A DNA stretch of 64,000 nucleotides, from IMG/VR virus record IMGVR_UViG_3300036715_003363. One strand, 5' to 3'. A program made the translations under genes and the position numbers. Origin of the DNA: a virus. The notes below the pieces were generated by a model that searched no databases, was not told the origin of the DNA, and saw only the letters and a program-made list of their open reading frames with translations. Shown in pieces: positions 3,140-52,057 of the stretch; the stretch's first letter is position 1; the number at the start of each line of letters is the position of its first letter.

Positions 3140-3301
3140 ATGAAATACCTTTTAAGACTATTAGGATACGAAATCGTAGAGCATAAGCCCATCTCTATTC
3201 TAGCTCATATGCACAGAACTACTCATCAGAGCTGGTTGAAGTCCTTGCAGAACTCAAATCGAATAAGAGACTATCAGGTTAACCTTTATATCAATGAATA
3301 A
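3140..3301 (+). CDS. Hypothetical 53-aa protein
   Basis: Hand translation MKYLLRLLGYEIVEHK...NLYINE; preceded by TTGACT-N17-TACCAT (3102-3130). Confidence 0.45.
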   Translation: MKYLLRLLGYEIVEHKPISILAHMHRTTHQSWLKSLQNSNRIRDYQVNLYINE

Positions 3302-3436: not shown

Positions 3437-4162
3437 ATGAAAACACAACATAGAAAACAAACCGAGGGCTTTTCCCTCATTGAGGTCGTTATTGGCCTCG
3501 TCGTCGCTGCCGTCTGCGTATTCTTTCTCCAGCGATTGCTTCCCAGCAGCCTGAGAGTTTCCGCGAATGCCACTGATCAGACAGCTGCCAGTAGTATGAT
3601 GACGGCAATTGCACAGGATCTCCGCAATACGCCTGCTGGCTCCTCCATCTCGCCGGGATTTGGAATCACGCTCCCAGTGAATACTACAAACTCCTCAGCA
3701 CTCATCTCCACCAACCTCTACCTTTCGACAGATGGTCTAGGTGTTTTGTCACCTTCGCAGGCACGATATGCGGCAACGATATGGATGAGCAATGCCGCCT
3801 CAGCAACGGTCACCTCGCTCACCACAGCACGGATTAGGGTTACTTGGCCTGCAAGTGCATATGCGAGCAACGCTCTAGGTTCCGTGGAGACCATCACCTC
3901 GTTTAATCGACAGTTGCAGCTTAACGGAGCGTATGTATCAAGTAAAGGAGCCGGGGCTTCTCCTATGAGGACGGGCAGTGACATTGATGGTCATGACAAT
4001 GGGAAGGGTAATAACTATCAAAATGAAGGAGTAGGTAATGGTGGAAGTACTGCTGGGTGCAATATGTGCAGTGGCTGCGGCGGTGGGTGTGGCGGCAATT
4101 GCAGTAGCCATTGTCCTCAAGGTATGGTAACAAGAGATCATGGCAATGGACAGGACAGATAA
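3437..4162 (+). CDS. Type IV pilin/pseudopilin-like protein (Verru_Chthon cassette B-like) with Gly/Cys-rich tail
   Basis: Class III signal G|FSLIEVV plus hydrophobic helix; LLP.SL....A..QTAA...IA.DLR.TP and RVTWPA motifs resemble verrucomicrobial cassette protein B. Confidence 0.8.
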   Translation: MKTQHRKQTEGFSLIEVVIGLVVAAVCVFFLQRLLPSSLRVSANATDQTAASSMMTAIAQDLRNTPAGSSISPGFGITLPVNTTNSSALISTNLYLSTDGLGVLSPSQARYAATIWMSNAASATVTSLTTARIRVTWPASAYASNALGSVETITSFNRQLQLNGAYVSSKGAGASPMRTGSDIDGHDNGKGNNYQNEGVGNGGSTAGCNMCSGCGGGCGGNCSSHCPQGMVTRDHGNGQDR

Positions 4163-4367
4163 AAGAGATAGCAGATCAAGGAGTATAAGCAGAGTTACTC
4201 TGATCGAACTGCTCGTAGTGGCTCTCTTGGTGATTTTGCTGAGCCAGATTATCAATCAGGCTTCTCAGACTAGTTCGCTCACTCCAGAACAGCAGGAGCA
4301 GGAGCTTCTTAATACTATCTATTATGATATGGTAACAAACGCTTGCAGCTCTTATAGACATCAATGA
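4140..4367 (+). CDS. Truncated pseudopilin-like protein
   Basis: R-VTLIELLVV..LL.ILL.QII.QAS resembles a prepilin N-terminal helix but lacks the G|F cleavage site; no globular domain. Confidence 0.55.
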   Translation: MAMDRTDKRDSRSRSISRVTLIELLVVALLVILLSQIINQASQTSSLTPEQQEQELLNTIYYDMVTNACSSYRHQ

Positions 4368-4375
4368 GAATGTTC

Positions 4376-4404
4376 TTGCGTTCCTTTCATTGAGGAGCCA
4401 TAAT
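4376..4404 (+). promoter_or_regulatory. Sigma70-like promoter followed by 5' hairpin and A-rich leader
   Basis: TTGCGT-N17-CATAAT; GAACAATC-GAAG-GATTGTTC hairpin from 4409; A/C-rich run to ATG 4462. Confidence 0.6.
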
Positions 4405-4461
4405 TTATGAACAATCGAAGGATTGTTCTAAACAAAATAAACAAAAACAAAACAAAATACA

Positions 4462-4821
4462 ATGAAATCAGTAATCCCACAAGAAGTCACTCAATATCAG
4501 GCTGCCTACTTTGAGACCTTTGGTACTCTCCCTACTCCAGTCATTGAGTGTAATATCACTGGCCAGGCAGTTACTTGCTTTGGCACGAACCTCGCCAAAA
4601 AGGTCGAAATGGCTGGCTCCATTGAGAAGCTCTTGGAGACGTTCGTCGGCCGCGGCAACGCTCCGATGCTTGCAAAGCCAGCGAAGCCAGCGAAGACTCC
4701 AGCGAAGCCAGTGAAGGCTCCATCAAAGGCTCCATCAAAGCCAGCGAAGAAGACTCCAAAGGGTAAAGTAGTGGCGACTCTCTCAGAGGCTAAGGTCGGA
4801 GATCTGGTCACACTTGAGTAG
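4462..4821 (+). CDS. Putative DNA-binding protein with Pro/Ala/Lys-rich histone H1-like tail
   Basis: N-domain similar to 2205-2648 (TCFG.NL..K...AG....LL..F); tail AKPAKPAKTPAKPVKAPSKAPSKPAKK from CCAGCGAAG and GGCTCCATCAAA repeats. Confidence 0.75.
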   Translation: MKSVIPQEVTQYQAAYFETFGTLPTPVIECNITGQAVTCFGTNLAKKVEMAGSIEKLLETFVGRGNAPMLAKPAKPAKTPAKPVKAPSKAPSKPAKKTPKGKVVATLSEAKVGDLVTLE

Positions 4822-4826
4822 GTTCT

Positions 4827-4910
4827 CCAATCGGGCTCTAATCCTGCCGCTCATCCAAGAAGACAATGAAGTTTGAGCAACTAGAGGAAAGCAGGATTAG
4901 AGCTGATTGG
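4827..4910 (+). other. Long imperfect stem-loop, candidate structured RNA or terminator
   Basis: GCTCTAATCCTGC (4835-4847) pairs perfectly with GCAGGATTAGAGC (4891-4903); extended by CCAATCG/TGATTGG; inner GCTCA/TGAGC stem. Confidence 0.6.
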
Positions 4911-5028
4911 TTCTGTGTTCATGACGATGCGATGATGTGCAGTTGTCCTTGAGAGACGCGGTTGTCCCGGGTGATTCGCAGAGTATTGAGTGGATAATGC
5001 GAAAGTTAGAGTAAGAAGCGGATTTTAG

Positions 5029-5056
5029 TTGACTTCCAGGCCCGGCACTCTATTAT
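5029..5056 (+). promoter_or_regulatory. Sigma70-like promoter, leaderless (ATG at 5063)
   Basis: TTGACT-N16-TATTAT-N6-ATG. Confidence 0.6.
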
Positions 5057-5062
5057 TAATAT

Positions 5063-5440
5063 ATGAGCCTTTACATATACCTTATGGGAGAATCTGTAAC
5101 AACAGATTGCGAATGTATTGATTGCGGGCATAAGCATTCAAGAACATCCAGAGAGAAGTTGTTCCGAGCAAACATTACTCATAACTTATCATTAATGGCC
5201 TCAGAGGCTGGATTATATCTTCCTCTTTGGCATCCAGAGAATCTCATGAGCCAGAAGGCAAAGGATTTAATCCCAGAGGTTGAGAAAGGACTTCAAAGTT
5301 TACTACTCTCTCCGGAGTTCTATAAAACATTTAACGATGAAAACGGCTGGGGAGTGTACGAACACTTTGTTTCTTTTGTTGAGAGATGCCTAGAGGCTTT
5401 TAAAGAATTCCCAGAGGCAACTGTGGAGACATCAACTTAA
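5063..5440 (+). CDS. Conserved phage hypothetical protein
   Basis: ANITHNL..MA.EAG.Y..LW.PE and NGWG.YE.FV.FV motifs recalled from a widespread phage family. Confidence 0.75.
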   Translation: MSLYIYLMGESVTTDCECIDCGHKHSRTSREKLFRANITHNLSLMASEAGLYLPLWHPENLMSQKAKDLIPEVEKGLQSLLLSPEFYKTFNDENGWGVYEHFVSFVERCLEAFKEFPEATVETST

Positions 5441-44834: not shown

Positions 44835-46637
44835 GTGCGCCACATTCAGTTTAAAAGTATCTCTGTAAAGAACTTCCTTTCAATCGGTAGAAACCCGGTT
44901 ATTGTTGATTTTAAGCAAGGCGTAAATCTCATAACCGGCCTTAATCACGATAAGGAAGATTCAAAAAATGGTGTTGGTAAGAGCTCAGTACTTGATGGTT
45001 TATACTTTGCTCTTTTCGGTTCAACGATTAGAGACATTAGTAAAGATCTCATTGTAAACTCAACTAATAAAGAAAAGTGCGAAGTTATTCTTAATCTACA
45101 AATTACATGTAGCAGCGGCACAAACACATATGTAATTACAAGAACTATTCAGCCAAATAAGTGTACAATTACAAAAGATGGAGTTGATGTTACAAGGTCA
45201 ACATTACCAAAAACCAACGAATATATTCAACAACTAATAAATTCTACAGGTAAAATTTTTCAAAATTCAGTTGTAATGTCAATTAATAGTACTGTTCCTT
45301 TTATGGCTCAGACAAAAGTTGATAAAAGAAAGTTTATTGAGAGTGTCTTAAAGCTTGAAGTATTTTCAGAAATGCTTGTAAAAGTCAGAGAGGAGCATAG
45401 TGAACTAAAAAGAGATTATGAAGTAATGTATGCAAGGCTTCAATCTACAGAAAAGAGCCTACAGACTAATAAGCAACAGTTAGATTTATTTGAAATTACA
45501 AAGCAGTCAAGAATTGCTGACAGCGATAGAAGAATACAAGATGCTCAAAAAAATATTGAAGCACTACGAAAACAAATTGTGTCAATTCCGAGTGACATTG
45601 AAACAAAAATTCACGAAAAAGAGCTTGAATTAGATACAGAGCTTGACAATGCAGAAGACAAATATAACAAGATAAATTCAGATGTAATTGGATTAAATGC
45701 TGAGTTAAATTTAGTTAACTCGGAAATTAAAGATATTGAAAAAGTTGGCGCAGTTTGTAATTCTTGCAAAAGACCATACCCTGAAAATGACACAAAACAC
45801 AGAGAAGAAAGTAAAAAAACACTTCAATTAAAACACAATAAAATTAATACAAAGTTGCTAACACTTAGAAAAACTCTTGAGGAAGCACTAAAAAATAGAA
45901 ACGACGTAAAAGATAAAATTAAAAAGCTTTCATCTAAAAAAGAAGGTATTGTTGTGTATATGGAGAAGAACAGAGACTCAACAAATAAGATCAGCTTTAT
46001 TCAAGTAAACATTAAACAGCACGAAGATGATAAAACAAAAATTGCAGCTGAATGTAATAGTCTTCTCGAAAAAACCGTTACAGATCTAACAGGAGATTTT
46101 ACAACCCAATCAGAATCATTGAATACAATTGACAGTAAATTAAGTGTTCTTGAATGTGTTAAATTTGTTGTTTCTGAAGAAGGTGTTAAATCATATATTG
46201 TTAAAAAGATTTTAAAAATTCTAAACACAAGACTTGCGTACTATCTTGATGAGCTTCAAGCAAATTGCATATGCCAGTTTGACGAATTTTTCGATGAAAA
46301 AATTACAGATGAAAAAAATGAAGAAAAGTCATACTTTAATTTTTCAGGCGGTGAAAGAAAAAGAATCGATCTTGCATGTCTGTTTGCATTTCTAGATATA
46401 AGAAGAATGCAGGGCGATATTAATTTTAGTACAATTTTTTACGATGAGCTTTTAGATTCATCTCTTGATGATAAGGGAGTTGAGCTCGTAGTGAAAGTAC
46501 TTCGTGAAAGACAAATAAAACATAATGAAAGCTGTTATATTATTACTCACAGAAGTAACGCTCTAAATAGTAAGGTTGACAGCACCTTAACACTGGAAAA
46601 ACGAAACGGATTTACTTACATATTGAGTAATGAGTAA
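44835..46637 (+). CDS. Rad50/SbcC-like ATPase (T4 gp46-like)
   Basis: NGVGKS, CNSC hook, FSGGE, YDELLDSSLD, ITH. Confidence 0.95.
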   Translation: MRHIQFKSISVKNFLSIGRNPVIVDFKQGVNLITGLNHDKEDSKNGVGKSSVLDGLYFALFGSTIRDISKDLIVNSTNKEKCEVILNLQITCSSGTNTYVITRTIQPNKCTITKDGVDVTRSTLPKTNEYIQQLINSTGKIFQNSVVMSINSTVPFMAQTKVDKRKFIESVLKLEVFSEMLVKVREEHSELKRDYEVMYARLQSTEKSLQTNKQQLDLFEITKQSRIADSDRRIQDAQKNIEALRKQIVSIPSDIETKIHEKELELDTELDNAEDKYNKINSDVIGLNAELNLVNSEIKDIEKVGAVCNSCKRPYPENDTKHREESKKTLQLKHNKINTKLLTLRKTLEEALKNRNDVKDKIKKLSSKKEGIVVYMEKNRDSTNKISFIQVNIKQHEDDKTKIAAECNSLLEKTVTDLTGDFTTQSESLNTIDSKLSVLECVKFVVSEEGVKSYIVKKILKILNTRLAYYLDELQANCICQFDEFFDEKITDEKNEEKSYFNFSGGERKRIDLACLFAFLDIRRMQGDINFSTIFYDELLDSSLDDKGVELVVKVLRERQIKHNESCYIITHRSNALNSKVDSTLTLEKRNGFTYILSNE

Positions 46638-49014
46638 TTATAGTGTTTCGCGATCCGGAATTGATACAGTAATAGGCGCACCCTTCGGTGTTCCGGTTGG
46701 TGTTCCATCTACATACTACGCAACACTTGTTCATGAACAAGTACCACTACCACCTCCTGATATTCCAGGTCAGGGTCTTCCTCGAGCAGTAAACTACCTC
46801 GCAGATTACGGAGGATGTAGCTTTTATAGATGTATGGCTCCGAATAACATGCTCAATCTTTATAATAAAGCAGTTATTCAAGATCTTACAACGATGGTTC
46901 TTGATCCAAGATTTTATCAGGGAATAAAAGCAGTAAAGATTCAAAGACAAGCAACACCAGTTCAGAGAGAGTTTGTAAAGATGCTTAAGCAACTTTCAAT
47001 ACAAGAGGGATTTAAACTTATCTATGAAATTGATGATATTGTTTTCAGAGAAGATATTCCTGATTATAATAGAAACAAAGACGCGTTTGTAAGCGATGAA
47101 ATTAGAAACTCAATTCTTGATATTATGAGAATGTGTGACGAAGTTACAGTTACATGTGATCATATGAGAGATTATTTTATTGAAAAAACAGGAAATAAAA
47201 ACACAACAGTCATTCCTAATTATCTTCTTAAATGGTGGTTTGATCGATACTATAACTTAGGAGATTTGATCAAAAAGTACGAAAAAAATAAAAAGAAGCC
47301 TGTTATATCAATTTTTGCCTCTGGTACTCATACAGATACTGTTAATAGAGTTAACCAAAATGACGACTTTGCTGCTATTGTTAGTGCTGTAATGAAAACA
47401 AGAAAAGATTTTCAGTGGCAATTCTATGGATGCTTTCCACTTACTTTGAAACCTTTTGTTGATTCAGGAGAAGTTATCTATAAACAATGGGTGCAGCTTC
47501 CAGACTTTCCAGCTGCAATGGCAGAATCTGGCTCACAATTAACATTTGCGGCTCTACAGAATAATAACTTTAATCGCAGTAAGTGCGTAACAGGAGACAC
47601 AATTATTCAAATAAAAGATGAAGGATTCATTAAAATTAAAGATTTTTGTGAAAGTAAATACACTACACAAAAAGATGTAAGAGTTAATAACACATTTAAA
47701 AAAATAGACGGAATATATATATCTCCCGAAAAGGAAAAAATTATTAAAATTGTAACTAATAAGGGATATGAGCTTAAAGGAACAGAAACACATAGAGTAA
47801 AGATTAATAATAAATGGGTAGAAATGAAAGATATAAAAGTAGGTGATGTAGTTAATATTGAAAAATATGATATTCAAGAGAATCTACCTTATCAAGAATT
47901 GAAAATGCCTTTTTGGCAAACACAAAAAATTAGTACGGATGACTTTATTACTATACAAGACAAGAATATTTCACCTTATATTAAAGTAAATGAAGAATTT
48001 GCTAGATTATTCGGATATATTCTAAGTGATGGTCATCTTTCATCTGGTAATTATGTGAGTATTACATGCTGTAAGAGAGACAAGGAGGTTATTGATGATG
48101 TAACAAATCTAATTACGCAAATGGGAATAACACCAAAAATACACAAATCTTCATATGATGATTCGATTGAGTGTTCTATAATTTCATGTAATTCAAAAAC
48201 ATTAAGACAAATGTTCGAATGGATGGGTTTCACAACAAAGAGTAAAAGTAAGGATTTATCTATCCCGAATTTTATATGGAAATCTAAAAGAAGTGTAGTG
48301 GCCAATTTTATACAGGGTCTTTTTGAGTTAGATGGTACTGTATCAACAGAAGTGAGCTTTTGTACAAAGTCAGAGAAATTTGCAAAGGATATACAAATTA
48401 TTTTATTAGGATTTGGAATATTTACAACACACACAAGAGAAAAATCGTCTTATACTAAAGGTCGTGAGAAAGTAGTTACAGGAGAGCATTCAGTTATAAG
48501 ATTGACTAGAGAAAGTTGTGATATATTTCAAAAAGAGATAGGATTTGTTTCAAATTTTAAAAAAGATAAGCTTAAAAATGTATGTGAAAAAAAGCATATC
48601 AATGAATATAATCAGACTGACGAAGTAGTTAGTGTTGAATATACTGAAAATGAAATTGTGTATGACATTAGTGTACCTGGATTAAGGAGCTATTGTGCAA
48701 ATGGCATATTATCACACAATAGTAATATTAAGCTTATCGAAGCTGGATCAATGGGCGTTCCATGCATATGCCCCGATATGTGCACATATCAAGATGCATT
48801 GCTAAAGTATAAGACTGGTGATGAATTTATTGATCAGATTCGTTACGCTCTTAAGGACCAGACAAGATATGCAGATCTTTGCAAGAAGTCTCGATTACAT
48901 GCAGAAGACTATTGGCTCGAGGACGAAAAAAATCTCGGAAAACATTACGAGGCATATTTCACACCTTTTGATTCATCTGATAGGAAGTGGCTTTTAGAGT
49001 CAAATCCAGTATAA
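46630..49014 (+). CDS. GT-B glycosyltransferase-like protein with intein
   Basis: D..GC.FYR, YEIDD, FNRSK|intein|SNIKLIEAG.MG.P. Confidence 0.85.
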   Translation: MSNYSVSRSGIDTVIGAPFGVPVGVPSTYYATLVHEQVPLPPPDIPGQGLPRAVNYLADYGGCSFYRCMAPNNMLNLYNKAVIQDLTTMVLDPRFYQGIKAVKIQRQATPVQREFVKMLKQLSIQEGFKLIYEIDDIVFREDIPDYNRNKDAFVSDEIRNSILDIMRMCDEVTVTCDHMRDYFIEKTGNKNTTVIPNYLLKWWFDRYYNLGDLIKKYEKNKKKPVISIFASGTHTDTVNRVNQNDDFAAIVSAVMKTRKDFQWQFYGCFPLTLKPFVDSGEVIYKQWVQLPDFPAAMAESGSQLTFAALQNNNFNRSKCVTGDTIIQIKDEGFIKIKDFCESKYTTQKDVRVNNTFKKIDGIYISPEKEKIIKIVTNKGYELKGTETHRVKINNKWVEMKDIKVGDVVNIEKYDIQENLPYQELKMPFWQTQKISTDDFITIQDKNISPYIKVNEEFARLFGYILSDGHLSSGNYVSITCCKRDKEVIDDVTNLITQMGITPKIHKSSYDDSIECSIISCNSKTLRQMFEWMGFTTKSKSKDLSIPNFIWKSKRSVVANFIQGLFELDGTVSTEVSFCTKSEKFAKDIQIILLGFGIFTTHTREKSSYTKGREKVVTGEHSVIRLTRESCDIFQKEIGFVSNFKKDKLKNVCEKKHINEYNQTDEVVSVEYTENEIVYDISVPGLRSYCANGILSHNSNIKLIEAGSMGVPCICPDMCTYQDALLKYKTGDEFIDQIRYALKDQTRYADLCKKSRLHAEDYWLEDEKNLGKHYEAYFTPFDSSDRKWLLESNPV
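47584..48720 (+). mobile_element. Contiguous intein (379 aa) with LAGLIDADG endonuclease
   Basis: CVTGDT; GTETH; FGYILSDG and FIQGLFELDG; VYDISV...SY.ANGILSHN|S. Confidence 0.93.
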
Positions 49015-49024
49015 TTGATAGTGA

Positions 49025-49429
49025 ATGTATAGAAACGTATATTATAACTCACGAGAAGGAACTGCTTTTTTAAGAACTTGGTCTGAAGAGGGTGTTAGAA
49101 TTGACACTGAGATACCCTTTGGTCCATATCTTTATACAGAAGATAGTAGAGGTGTTGATGGAGTGTCTATTTATAAAACACCACTTAAGAAACACGCATT
49201 TTCAAATAATTTTGAGCGATCAAAGTTTGTAAAGTCAACATCAAACAAAAGAATATTCGGCAATCTAAGCACTGACCAACAATTTTTATTTGAAACATTT
49301 AAAGATCAAATTGATAATGAGGATTTTAGTAAGTTTCCTCTGAAGGTATATTCTTTGGATATTGAAACGGGATCAAACGGATACAGTAGTGATCATAAAA
49401 TTAGAGTTAGAAAGAAGAAAAGAGGTTGA
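49025..49429 (+). CDS. Family B DNA polymerase, N-terminal fragment
   Basis: PYLY, ends just after ExoI SLDIET; followed by stop. Confidence 0.88.
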   Translation: MYRNVYYNSREGTAFLRTWSEEGVRIDTEIPFGPYLYTEDSRGVDGVSIYKTPLKKHAFSNNFERSKFVKSTSNKRIFGNLSTDQQFLFETFKDQIDNEDFSKFPLKVYSLDIETGSNGYSSDHKIRVRKKKRG

Positions 49430-49460
49430 TATTGAGACTTAAAAGCGCATATATGATTAT

Positions 49461-49766
49461 ATGAATTTTATAAAGATTTATAACAGTTTGTGCGACAGAG
49501 GACAAAACAGAATTAAAAATTTAAGCGAAGACGATAAGAAAAAAAGATTGAGTAAAAATCTTCATAGCGACAAAGTTGATCATATCGCTAGAGGAAAAGC
49601 TATATCAAAGAGTAAAAAAGAAAAAACGAACCAGTCTAATATAACTTCTGAGAGATTAGGAAAAATGAATGATGTAGAATTTACAAAATATCTAGAATCG
49701 ATATCACACAGAATGCATACAAGAGCTATAAACTTTAGAAATAAATGGAAGAATATATCACAATAA
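49461..49766 (+). mobile_element. Degenerate free-standing homing endonuclease-like ORF inside polB
   Basis: MNFIKIYNSLCDRGQNR resembles HNH endonuclease N-termini, but no HNH core remains. Confidence 0.5.
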
Positions 49767-52057
49767 AAGATTTTAAAAAAATCCAACACACAGATGAATA
49801 TGAAGTATGGGATGAAAAAAAGAAAGAGTGGCTATCTTTTGATCAAACTGTTTATAGCGGAGATACGTCATTCCCTAATGTTTTAAATCCAAAACATCCA
49901 GTACTACTTATAACCATACACAATTCTCTTACAGATGAATATGACACATGGGGCCTTGTAAAGAATTACACTCCAAAGCTTCCAAACGTTAGATACCATA
50001 AATGCAAAGATGAAGGAGAATTATTTGAGAAGTTTATGCGTTTTTGGAAAGCTGATCCTCCCGATATTTTATGTGGTTGGAACTCAGAGCAGTTTGATAT
50101 TCCGTATATTATTAATAGAGCAAAAAAACTTTTCAGTGAAGAATTCATTAATCAGTTGTCACCAGTTGGTAATCTTTATTACAGAGAGACTCATAATAGA
50201 TTCGGACAAGATTCTGGTAGATGGATTATTGGAGGAATTAGCTGTTTAGATTATCTTGATGTATATAAAGCTTTTTCTAAAGGGAGTAGAGAATCATATT
50301 CCTTAAATTATATTGCAGAGTATGAGCTAGATGAAGGTAAGCTTGCGTTTAATGCAGTAGGACTCGCGGCCCTAGCAGATAATGACTGGGACACATTTGT
50401 TGATTACAATATTCAGGACGTAACTCTGTTGAAGAGACTGGATGACAAACTAAAATATTTGAGTATTGTAAGACTTCTTGCATATAAAGGATGTACAAAT
50501 TTTGAAGCAGCACTTGGAAAAGTTTCAATTGTTACAGGAGCGATGGCCTTACAAGCTAATAAAATGGGATTAGTAATTCCAACATTTAAAACAGAACATG
50601 ATGTTGAAACATTTGCAGGAGGATATGTAAGAGAACCTGAAAAAGGAATTAAAGATTCAATTGTAAGTTTTGACGTTAATTCGCTGTACCCAAATACAAT
50701 TATTACTTTGAATATTTCTGCAGAAACAAAAATGGGTAAAATTGTAACAGGAGATATTGATAAGGATGATGAGATTCAAATCAAGCTTGTCAATGGAAAG
50801 CTTGCAACAGTTAAAGTTAAAAACTTTAAAACATTCATTAAAAATGAAAATATTTCAGTATCAAAGGCAGGAGTATTATACACTCAAAAATACAAGGGTG
50901 TTTGTCCTTTACTAATTGACGGCCTCTATAAAGAGCGCATTGCAGTGAGAAATAAAATGAATGATCTTAAAAAGACGAAGAAAAAAGATGAGGAAACATT
51001 GTCACAGATTACAAGATTAGATAATATGCAGCAAGCGGTTAAGGTATTTTTGAATTCGATTTACGGAACGCTCGCAAATAAACATTCTCCTTTCGTCGAT
51101 ATTGATAGCGCTTCATCAGTTACACTCACTGGACAAGCAGTTGCAAAACAAGGTGCAATTATTATTGATAATTTTGCAAAGGAGAAGTGGGGAGTTGAAG
51201 AGTCGCTTACATTAGCTTCAGATACAGACAGCTGTTATATAACGATCCAGCCTATATTAGATAAATTAGGGATAAAACTTGTTGATGAACAAGGAGTTGT
51301 CACTGCAGAAGCACATAAAATTGTTAATGCAATTGGAAAAATTGTAAATACTGGAGTAATTGAGTGGGCAAAATTAGAACTCAATTCAATTGATCCGAGA
51401 TTTGAATTTAAGAGAGAAGCGATTGCTGATGTAGGAGTATTTACAACGAAGAAAAGATATATTCTTCATATTCTAGATGATGAGGGAGTATCAACAAGTA
51501 AATTTAAGTATGTCGGTGTTGAATTAGCTCGTTCAACAACTCCAAAACCAGTAAAGGCTCTTTTAAAGAAAACAATTGATACTGCTCTTCTATCAAAAGA
51601 TATTAAGAAGACAAATGAAGTTTTTAGAGAGGCTTACGATGAGTTTAAGAGAATGCCAATTGAAGATATATCTTTCAGAAGAGCAGTAAATAATATTTCA
51701 AAGTTTTCAAGTGGTGCATCATTAACAAAGTTTGTAAGTCGAACTCCAGGTCATGTAAAAGCAGCATTGGCTCACAATTTACTTCTTGATAAGTTTGGCA
51801 TTAAAAACAAATATGAAGTTGTAAATTCAGGACAAAAAATTAAGTGGTTCTATGCGGAAAAAAATCAATATGGAGTTGAATCAGTTGGGTTTATTAGCCA
51901 ATATCCAACAGAATTCGCAGCAATAAAAATTGACTATGATAAGATGTTCGGCAAGATTGTTGTTCCTCCAATTGAGGCAATTTATGATGCAATTGGATGG
52001 CATATTCCACAGATAGGAAAAGAGACTGTAACTGATTTATCTGATTTATTCAGTTGA
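49745..52057 (+). CDS. Family B DNA polymerase, C-terminal fragment (T4 gp43-like)
   Basis: GWNSEQFDIPY, YNIQDV, SFDVNSLYP, K..LNSIYG, DTDS, KKRY; C-terminal DLSDLF. Confidence 0.95.
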   Translation: MEEYITIKDFKKIQHTDEYEVWDEKKKEWLSFDQTVYSGDTSFPNVLNPKHPVLLITIHNSLTDEYDTWGLVKNYTPKLPNVRYHKCKDEGELFEKFMRFWKADPPDILCGWNSEQFDIPYIINRAKKLFSEEFINQLSPVGNLYYRETHNRFGQDSGRWIIGGISCLDYLDVYKAFSKGSRESYSLNYIAEYELDEGKLAFNAVGLAALADNDWDTFVDYNIQDVTLLKRLDDKLKYLSIVRLLAYKGCTNFEAALGKVSIVTGAMALQANKMGLVIPTFKTEHDVETFAGGYVREPEKGIKDSIVSFDVNSLYPNTIITLNISAETKMGKIVTGDIDKDDEIQIKLVNGKLATVKVKNFKTFIKNENISVSKAGVLYTQKYKGVCPLLIDGLYKERIAVRNKMNDLKKTKKKDEETLSQITRLDNMQQAVKVFLNSIYGTLANKHSPFVDIDSASSVTLTGQAVAKQGAIIIDNFAKEKWGVEESLTLASDTDSCYITIQPILDKLGIKLVDEQGVVTAEAHKIVNAIGKIVNTGVIEWAKLELNSIDPRFEFKREAIADVGVFTTKKRYILHILDDEGVSTSKFKYVGVELARSTTPKPVKALLKKTIDTALLSKDIKKTNEVFREAYDEFKRMPIEDISFRRAVNNISKFSSGASLTKFVSRTPGHVKAALAHNLLLDKFGIKNKYEVVNSGQKIKWFYAEKNQYGVESVGFISQYPTEFAAIKIDYDKMFGKIVVPPIEAIYDAIGWHIPQIGKETVTDLSDLFS

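What the first reader, a model, noticed from the sequence alone, without database searches (positions are those of the whole stretch)
49025..52057. DNA polymerase split next to the ExoI motif with no intein
Seen: polB stops after SLDIET-GSNGYSSDHKIRVRKKKRG and resumes as MEEYITIKDF...EYEVWDEKKKEWLSF...SFPN, with a decayed endonuclease-like ORF between. No intein N-terminal block or terminal HN is present. Established: T4-like phages have split gp43 genes and HEG-fractured genes whose halves assemble non-covalently. Inference: the extra basic (HKIRVRKK) and acidic/aromatic segments flanking the break may form a split adaptor that rejoins the exonuclease domain; RNA splicing or ribosomal bypass are alternatives.
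Basis: partly seen in the sequence, partly recalled or inferred. Interest (0 to 1): 0.7.

Follow-up and report, generated by a model that had tools for sequence, protein, structure and literature searches.

The report
Endonuclease-split phage DNA polymerase gene
The DNA polymerase gene of this uncultured T4-like phage is cut in two just after its first proofreading motif by a selfish (now decayed) homing-endonuclease cassette, and that cassette adds two short, oppositely charged peptide ends that most likely clip the two protein pieces back together without any splicing, a trick already described for two other phage enzymes.

Summary
polB (T4 gp43 type) is encoded as a 134-aa piece (49025-49429) and a 770-aa piece (49745-52057). 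Between them lies a 101-aa remnant of a Mob-family HNH homing endonuclease that has lost its catalytic domain. No intron, intein or read-through joins the pieces.

About 75 close relatives are unsplit and lack the 19-aa basic tail and the 36-aa acidic head. The same tail, head and break site recur in at least five diverged split lineages, three of them with an intact endonuclease behind a T4 late promoter.

The tail and head also occur fused, as one roughly 55-aa insert, in unsplit polymerases. Their codons vary synonymously, so the peptides themselves are under selection. AlphaFold2 predicts a small hairpin-helix-hairpin module with the break in the first hairpin loop.

On the polymerase tree, presence of the cassette changes at least five times. 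A second, out-of-frame copy of the ExoI-coding words sits just after the tail.

Best reading: a mobile cassette with clasp-like tails, as in Aeh1 nrdA/mobE and T4 mobA. It is a new member of a known kind. The scan had already found this cassette in other phage genomes.

The parts
49025..49429 (+). polB N piece (134 aa): most of the N-terminal domain plus the first exonuclease strand with ExoI (Asp112, Glu114)
   Evidence: 60-70% identical to the N-termini of unsplit relatives, similar to the 58-66% of the C piece, so it is not decaying
49358..49369 (+). ExoI codons (DIET), functional copy
49370..49426 (+). C-terminal tail of the N piece (19 aa, net charge +6, pI 11.1); module strand 1 (KIRVRK)
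49428..49439 (+). second, out-of-frame copy of the ExoI-coding words, directly after the stop codon
   Evidence: only two matches to the 11-mer in the 64-kb window, 70 nt apart; the same relic is present in L040, L084 and L089
49461..49766 (+). remnant of a Mob-family HNH homing endonuclease gene (101 aa, catalytic domain deleted in frame; its late promoter has decayed)
49745..52057 (+). polB C piece (770 aa): rest of the exonuclease domain (ExoII, ExoIII), palm, fingers and thumb; its start overlaps the endonuclease remnant by 22 nt
49745..49852 (+). N-terminal head of the C piece (36 aa, net charge -4, pI 4.7); module strand 2, a short helix and the second hairpin (YEVWDEK...W)

Best explanation
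This is a gene in pieces made by a mobile element. A free-standing Mob-type HNH homing endonuclease cassette sits in the T4-type family B polymerase gene immediately after the ExoI motif. It splits the gene into two separately translated proteins. The cassette carries coding sequence for a basic C-terminal extension on the upstream piece and an acidic N-terminal extension on the downstream piece. Together these extensions form a small hairpin-helix-hairpin module whose first hairpin is completed across the two chains. The N piece is an integral part of the gp43 fold, so the halves probably reassemble by fold complementation, with the two extensions acting as a charge-matched clasp. In this phage the endonuclease has since decayed (catalytic domain and late promoter lost), but its 3' end is kept, probably because it carries the translation start region of the C piece. 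Shown: the split, the decayed endonuclease, the conservation and peptide-level selection of the extensions, their absence from the nearest relatives, their fused form elsewhere, and their patchy spread over the polymerase tree. Inferred: separate translation, non-covalent assembly, the clasp role, and an origin of the extensions in the cassette.
For: Split and gene identity. About 75 relatives in viral contigs are unsplit and equal N piece residues 1-119 plus C piece residues 42-770. The same break, tail and head occur in L040/L086-88, L084 and L089 (intact 268-271-aa endonuclease), in L081-83 (endonuclease almost gone), and in the short proteins P0005 and P0006. A profile of the head finds 59 cluster representatives among 1.84 billion: 48 at protein N-termini and 10 internal at about residue 135-190 of long polymerases. 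Tails and heads of split forms align colinearly with that contiguous insert. Synonymous codon differences in the conserved tail and head residues show peptide-level selection. Tails are basic (pI 9.5-11.1) and heads acidic (pI 4.3-4.9) in all five lineages. An AlphaFold2 model of the read-through fusion gives an RB69 gp43-like fold (Foldseek E 2e-27) with the tail strand and head at pLDDT 70-84 and the junk linker below 40. The insert folded alone has the same secondary structure. On the tree the window is nested in a module-less clade (100*) and L081 is sister to module-less L100 (95*). At least 5 state changes are forced, and AU tests reject one clade for the split rows (p 6e-4, 3e-3, 5e-5). 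The 12 residues just downstream of the cassette resemble split alleles more than the window's own clade. The endonuclease belongs to the Mob family (phrog_655 E 1e-37; 36-46% identity to mobE-type genes) and sits behind TATAAATA in the intact copies. Precedents: PMC3045599, bioRxiv 10.1101/2022.08.31.505936, PMC2988022.
Against: No experiment shows that the two proteins are made, bind each other or are active. The structure tool gives no coordinates, so tail-head pairing in the fused model is inferred from strand assignment and confidence only. The second model is of an unsplit relative. In the Aeh1 NrdA precedent the tails were not needed for heterodimer formation, only for higher-order assembly, so 'clasp' may be too simple. 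The direction of evolution is not settled: the cassette may have brought the module, or an older module may have been invaded. My sampling of module-bearing rows for the tree was biased, and the AU groups were named after I had seen the tree. Only 64 kb of a ~184-kb genome could be checked for a second polymerase.
Confidence: 0.72

Rival explanations
1. The ~55-aa module is an old structural insert of a subset of T4-like polymerases. The endonuclease merely invaded its first hairpin loop, so the flanking segments are not derived from the mobile element. Module-less relatives lost the insert or replaced it by recombination.
For: Contiguous module-bearing polymerases exist in several deep lineages and sit next to split forms on the tree. 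Overall parsimony on the first tree allowed three losses as well as four gains.
Against: The window and L081 are each nested inside module-less clades with two or three successive module-less outgroups. The out-of-frame ExoI relic abuts the endonuclease promoter and matches the module-less junction up to the Tyr codon. That is expected if the endonuclease first inserted into a module-less allele. No cultured phage among 50,697 records has the head.
Confidence: 0.2
2. The tail and head are the two halves of a miniaturised, splicing-dead, atypically split intein. The arrangement would then be a degenerate fractured gene of the split-intein type.
For: The module model's nearest solved structures include 16 intein or HINT chains among 47 VIA-align hits (best Z 3.9, rmsd 2.8, 53 aligned). 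Inteins also head the Foldseek list. The same phage has split-intein fractured genes (not tested here). Crona et al. raised this idea for the NrdA tails.
Against: All Z scores are below 4 and all Foldseek E values are at least 0.86. GYF/BRK, KOW and GINS hairpin domains score alike. There is no Cys/Ser1, no block B and no terminal His-Asn, and the ~55 aa compare with at least ~125 aa for a working HINT domain. hhalign against five phage intein N-termini gives 0.4% probability. A profile against PDB sequences finds only a Kelch-like hairpin motif. Pfam finds nothing.
Confidence: 0.12
3. One continuous polymerase is made after all, by a self-splicing intron, translational bypass, read-through or frameshifting across 49430-49744.
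For: In the window the N and C pieces are in the same frame, 720 nt apart. Mob-family cassettes are linked to the T4 gene 60 bypass. Two matched copies of the ExoI words lie 70 nt apart.
Against: No Rfam family matches, even at E 10. The folding energy of the gap is ordinary (z -0.83). Sixteen stop codons lie between the pieces. In L040, L084 and L081 the pieces are in different frames. The tail and head are conserved as peptides with synonymous changes, and each head starts at a conserved Met. Landing at the relic would hit a stop at once.
Confidence: 0.03
4. The split gene is a dead polymerase (pseudogene) or an assembly artefact, and replication relies on another polymerase.
For: The endonuclease is decayed. 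Only 64 kb of the genome could be searched, and no whole genome is held.
Against: Both pieces keep intact frames and all exonuclease and polymerase motifs, and both are as conserved as in their unsplit relatives. The split form is represented by 48 clusters at 50% identity. The identical N piece is on 6 contigs. No second polB lies in the window.
Confidence: 0.03

Closest known systems
Aeromonas phage Aeh1 nrdA-a / mobE / nrdA-b (Friedrich et al. 2007; Crona et al. 2011, PMC3045599)
   Same: A Mob-family HNH endonuclease gene sits inside an essential replication-related gene. There are two separately translated pieces and no intron or intein. The upstream piece has a basic C-terminal tail and the downstream piece an acidic N-terminal tail, both absent from unsplit homologues and attributed to the mobile element.
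   Different: The host gene and site differ (polB just after ExoI). Here the tails are conserved across many diverged lineages, are predicted to form one small folded module, and also exist fused in unsplit genes. No biochemistry exists here.
T4 mobA element splitting topoisomerase gene 39/60 (Manning and Atkins 2022, bioRxiv 10.1101/2022.08.31.505936)
   Same: A mobile cassette always found at one site, adding conserved C- and N-terminal extensions. It has a patchy distribution from repeated insertions, shows progressive loss of the endonuclease with retention of the split and tails, and shows occasional secondary fusion.
   Different: No bypass cassette is seen here. Instead, a translated 19-aa tail lies between two copies of the target words. 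The host gene is different.
Split gp43 (43A/43B) of Aeromonas phages 25, 31, 44RR (Petrov, Ratnayaka, Karam 2010, as reviewed in PMC2988022)
   Same: A T4-type polymerase encoded by two genes, in one case with a homing endonuclease gene between them. The pieces co-purify and are active.
   Different: The break there lies much further downstream. Here it is next to ExoI, leaving a 134-aa N piece. Cyanophages S-CREM2, S-H34 and ACG-2014f are also split at another site.
Fractured genes with split inteins and a free-standing endonuclease (Dassa et al. 2009, PMC2677866)
   Same: The layout of gene half, endonuclease gene, gene half in marine phage-like DNA. That paper also notes intein-less cases.
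   Different: No splicing-competent intein halves are present here, so the pieces must stay non-covalent.

Membership tests
Family B DNA polymerase, T4 gp43 type | Exonuclease motifs ExoI (DxE), ExoII and ExoIII | tested here: met
   ExoI lies in the N piece; ExoII and ExoIII lie in the C piece; PF03104 E 5e-19
Family B DNA polymerase, T4 gp43 type | Polymerase motifs A, B, C and overall sequence or fold match to gp43 | tested here: met
   PF00136 E 4e-28; phmmer to RB69 gp43 E 5e-65; phrog_262 E 3e-179; fused N-terminal model matches RB69 gp43 with Foldseek E 2e-27
Mob-type free-standing HNH homing endonuclease | HNH catalytic motif | tested here: not met
   The window ORF lacks the ~164 residues that hold the motif. 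The intact relatives L040 and L089 have it (PF13395, PF01844). The window copy is a remnant, not an active member.
Mob-type free-standing HNH homing endonuclease | Sequence relationship to mobE/mobA-type genes of T4-like phages | tested here: met
   Intact relatives: phrog_655 E 1e-37; tblastn 36-46% identity over the N-terminal half to genes annotated mobE or homing endonuclease next to nrdA
Endonuclease cassette with tail extensions (MobE/nrdA, MobA/topoisomerase kind) | Endonuclease gene between two halves of one gene, with extensions absent from unsplit homologues | tested here: met
Endonuclease cassette with tail extensions (MobE/nrdA, MobA/topoisomerase kind) | Extensions conserved among independent insertions and oppositely charged | tested here: met
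Endonuclease cassette with tail extensions (MobE/nrdA, MobA/topoisomerase kind) | Extensions required for assembly or activity of the split enzyme | not testable with these tools
   Needs co-expression and deletion mutants
Intein / split intein | N-terminal Cys/Ser, block B (TxxH), C-terminal His-Asn followed by a nucleophile | tested here: not met
   No conserved Cys/Ser at the start of the tail, no block B, no His-Asn; Pfam intein models are silent here but hit the neighbouring gene
Intein / split intein | HINT fold | tested here: inconclusive
   The module model's best structural neighbours include many inteins, but at Z 2.1-3.9 and Foldseek E of at least 0.86; other small hairpin domains score alike; hhalign probability 0.4%
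Group I or group II intron | Match to a covariance model or an unusually stable conserved RNA structure | tested here: not met
   Rfam scan at E up to 10 gives only two chance snoRNA rows; fold z-score -0.83; flanks are conserved as peptide, not RNA

The most novel reading that the evidence does not exclude
The cassette is more than an endonuclease with sticky ends. Its tail and head could be a miniaturised, splicing-dead descendant of an atypically split intein, reused as a non-covalent clasp. The out-of-frame second copy of the ExoI target words next to the late promoter could be a kept operator or decoy through which the endonuclease regulates itself or spares its own genome. That would be analogous to I-TevI autorepression (my own knowledge) and to the protective insert of MobA.
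Probability: 0.15. Interest if true: 0.65.

Novelty: new member of a known kind. Interest (0 to 1): 0.45.

Why it matters
The finding adds an essential replicative polymerase, cut inside its proofreading domain, to the two studied cases in which a Mob-type endonuclease splits a gene and supplies the peptide ends that neutralise the damage. The tails here are conserved across many lineages. They also occur fused in unsplit polymerases and are predicted to fold. That makes them a good natural system for asking how such tails work and where they come from, and a possible source of small non-covalent protein-joining tags. For annotation, 130-aa 'hypothetical' genes upstream of N-terminally short polB genes in marine and freshwater T4-like phages should be read as polymerase subunits.

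Tried and rejected
1. My first idea was that the head is a degenerate duplicate of the ExoI strand. It came from overlapping profile and BLAST ranges. I dropped it once unsplit forms with the contiguous insert were found.
2. The Rfam scan for introns found nothing, and RNA folding of the gap was ordinary.
3. Pfam on the module, tail and head gave no family.
4. A profile of the module against PDB sequences gave only a Kelch-like hairpin motif.
5. hhalign of the module against five phage intein N-termini gave no signal. That intein set was small and poorly aligned.
6. tblastn of the head against 50,697 cultured phage records gave no match.
7. The search for related loci with P0029 found no locus.
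8. I considered that a Met before strand 2 in unsplit forms is a relic start codon. I rejected this because the position differs from the start Met of split heads.
9. An 8-nt repeat at the cassette borders would not give an in-frame deletion, so it was not pursued.
11. No whole genome is held.
Full report
**The observation**

The window holds three ORFs on the + strand exactly as described.
- The N piece is 49025..49429 (134 aa). It ends with the ExoI motif DIET followed by 19 mostly basic residues.
- The middle ORF is 49461..49766 (101 aa), in another frame.
- The C piece is 49745..52057 (770 aa) and carries the family B exonuclease and polymerase domains.

The N piece matches positions 12-132 of the PHROG polymerase profile and the C piece matches positions 110-849. 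The C piece matches RB69 gp43 at E 5e-65.

Several results argue against an artefact or a joined product:
- Rfam finds no intron, even at E 10.
- Pfam finds no intein in either piece, though it does find a LAGLIDADG intein in the gene just upstream.
- The two pieces are in the same frame here, but 16 stop codons lie between them.
- The identical N piece is on record from six contigs, the longest 183.7 kb.

**What relatives show**

Eighty related loci came from viral contigs. In about 75 of them polB is one gene of about 847 aa. It equals N piece residues 1-119 joined directly to C piece residues 42-770. The nearest relatives (about 65% identity) therefore lack both the 19-aa tail and the first 36 residues of the C piece.

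Other, more distant loci are split at the same point.
- L040/L086-88, L084 and L089 have an N piece of 133-137 aa with a similar tail. They also have an intact 268-271-aa HNH endonuclease and a C piece of 780-786 aa with a similar head.
- L081-83 keep the split, tail and head, but only the last ~55 codons of the endonuclease.
- Two further short N pieces with the same tail are in the protein database.

The window's middle ORF matches these endonucleases over its first 17 and last ~85 residues. It lacks the ~164 residues between, which hold the HNH motif. The intact endonucleases belong to the Mob family of T4-like phages: phrog_655 at E 1e-37, and 36-46% identity to mobE-type genes. They are preceded by the T4 late promoter TATAAATA, which is decayed in the window. 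In every case the endonuclease 3' end overlaps the start of the C piece by 14-22 nt. That may explain why this part survives.

**The flanking segments**

Tails share the motif K-[IV]-[KR]-[IV]-R-K, and heads share [DE]-YEVWDEK-x3-W. The polymerases themselves are only 38-50% identical.

The conserved residues are encoded by different synonymous codons, and Arg uses both AGR and CGN. Selection therefore acts on the peptide, not on an RNA. Tails have pI 9.5-11.1 and heads pI 4.3-4.9 in all five lineages.

A profile of the head, searched against 1.84 billion cluster representatives, found 59 proteins.
- 48 carry the motif at their N-terminus and so are split C pieces.
- 10 carry it at about residue 135-190 of long polymerases. 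There the tail, a 5-9-residue loop and the head form one contiguous insert of about 55 aa after ExoI.

Loci L091-98 confirm this unsplit, module-bearing form. Tails and heads of split forms align colinearly with it, and the break falls in the loop between the first two strands.

**Structure prediction**

I folded the window's N piece, the 105 junk codons (stops read as Gly) and the first 330 residues of the C piece as one chain, with an alignment of relatives.
- The model has the RB69 gp43 N-terminal and exonuclease fold (Foldseek E 2e-27).
- The N piece has pLDDT near 90.
- The tail strand (residues 125-130) and the head (two strands, a short helix, two more strands) have pLDDT 70-84.
- The linker is below 40.

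The contiguous insert of L092 folded alone gives the same hairpin-helix-hairpin pattern, with core pLDDT 76-87. The tool returns no coordinates, so cross-chain pairing is inferred rather than measured.

The module's nearest solved structures are weak (Z at most 3.9; Foldseek E at least 0.86). They include many inteins, but also GYF/BRK, KOW and GINS hairpin domains. Sequence profiles give no intein signal. An intein origin is therefore a lead, not a finding.

**Distribution**

On trees built from the polymerase body with the module excluded:
- The window sits inside a clade of nine module-less sequences (100*).
- L088 is sister to a module-less clade.
- L081 is sister to module-less L100 (95*), inside a module-less group.
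- Split and unsplit module-bearing forms are interleaved.
- At least five changes of state are forced.
- AU tests reject holding the split rows together (p 6e-4, 3e-3, 5e-5).

There are caveats. I named the AU groups after seeing the tree. I removed near-duplicates. I left three long-branch rows out of the second tree. Module-bearing rows were sampled by their module.

The 12 residues just downstream of the cassette resemble split alleles more than the window's own clade, and further on the sequence is clade-typical. This patchiness, with a precise common site, is what a homing element gives.

**A relic of the target**

Directly after the N piece's stop codon lies a second copy of the ExoI-coding words. 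It is in another frame and 70 nt from the first copy. These are the only two matches to the 11-mer in the 64 kb.

The same relic is present in L040, L084 and L089. There it reads as the ExoI motif and runs straight into the late promoter. Its similarity to module-less alleles ends after the Tyr codon that follows ExoI.

I read this as the original left junction of the endonuclease with a module-less gene. On that reading the tail-coding 57 nt was added between two direct copies of the target words, which favours an origin of at least the tail within the cassette. Why the relic is kept is unexplained. It could be an operator, a decoy or just a scar.

**Comparison with known systems**

- Crona et al. 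showed that the mobE insertion in Aeh1 nrdA left a basic tail and an acidic tail, that both are essential for activity, and that such tails might be general.
- Manning and Atkins described mobA elements. These always add conserved extensions to the split topoisomerase, insert repeatedly at one site, lose the endonuclease stepwise, and sometimes re-fuse.
- Split gp43 genes are known at another site, and the pieces co-purify and are active.
- Fractured genes with split inteins are the spliced counterpart.

The present case fits this kind in every feature I could test, in a new host gene and at a new site. I found no paper describing it. Earlier reports of this scan describe the same cassette in other phage genomes and reach the same reading. 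They agree with what I derived here.

**Verdict**

Splicing, bypass, pseudogene and artefact are unlikely. This is a new member of a known kind, with moderate interest.

Noticed in passing
window 46630-49014 (+): The gene just upstream of polB is a glycosyltransferase-like protein of 794 aa. It carries a full intein with a LAGLIDADG endonuclease domain (PF14890, PF14528). The homologous genes in L040 and L073 are 407-416 aa and have no intein.
   Followed up: partly
window 49428-49439; L040 about 3182-3205; L084 about 2188-2210; L089 about 2160-2180: An out-of-frame second copy of the ExoI-coding words lies right after the N piece stop. In the intact cassettes it abuts the late promoter of the endonuclease. 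Its function is unknown; it could be an operator, a decoy or a scar.
   Followed up: partly
L073 3243-6305; L096 2501-6040; L095 2507-6361: These unsplit polB genes carry inteins elsewhere. There is a mini-intein at the DTD|S catalytic motif in L073 and L096, and a further intein after a conserved Asn-Cys junction in L095 and L096.
   Followed up: no
L081 2400-6206 (also L082, L083): polB is in three pieces here. Besides the ExoI break, a 305-aa ORF with a treble-clef zinc-finger domain (PF14311, PF05265) at 4153-5070 separates two further pieces.
   Followed up: no
L087 1593-3953; L075 about 4672; L037 about 5960: The polB C pieces are interrupted again (492 + 292 aa in L087) or change frame (L075, L037). 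These may be further splits, frameshifts or sequencing errors.
   Followed up: no
phage records S-CREM2, S-H34, S-N03, ACG-2014f: These cultured cyanophages have gp43 annotated as two genes with a hypothetical gene between them, at a different site from the one studied here.
   Followed up: no
window 49799-49831 (head, second hairpin): The most conserved part of the head resembles the hairpin signature of Kelch repeats (profile hit to a Kelch protein, E 3e-4, over 13 residues). This is probably convergence of a tight hairpin.
   Followed up: partly
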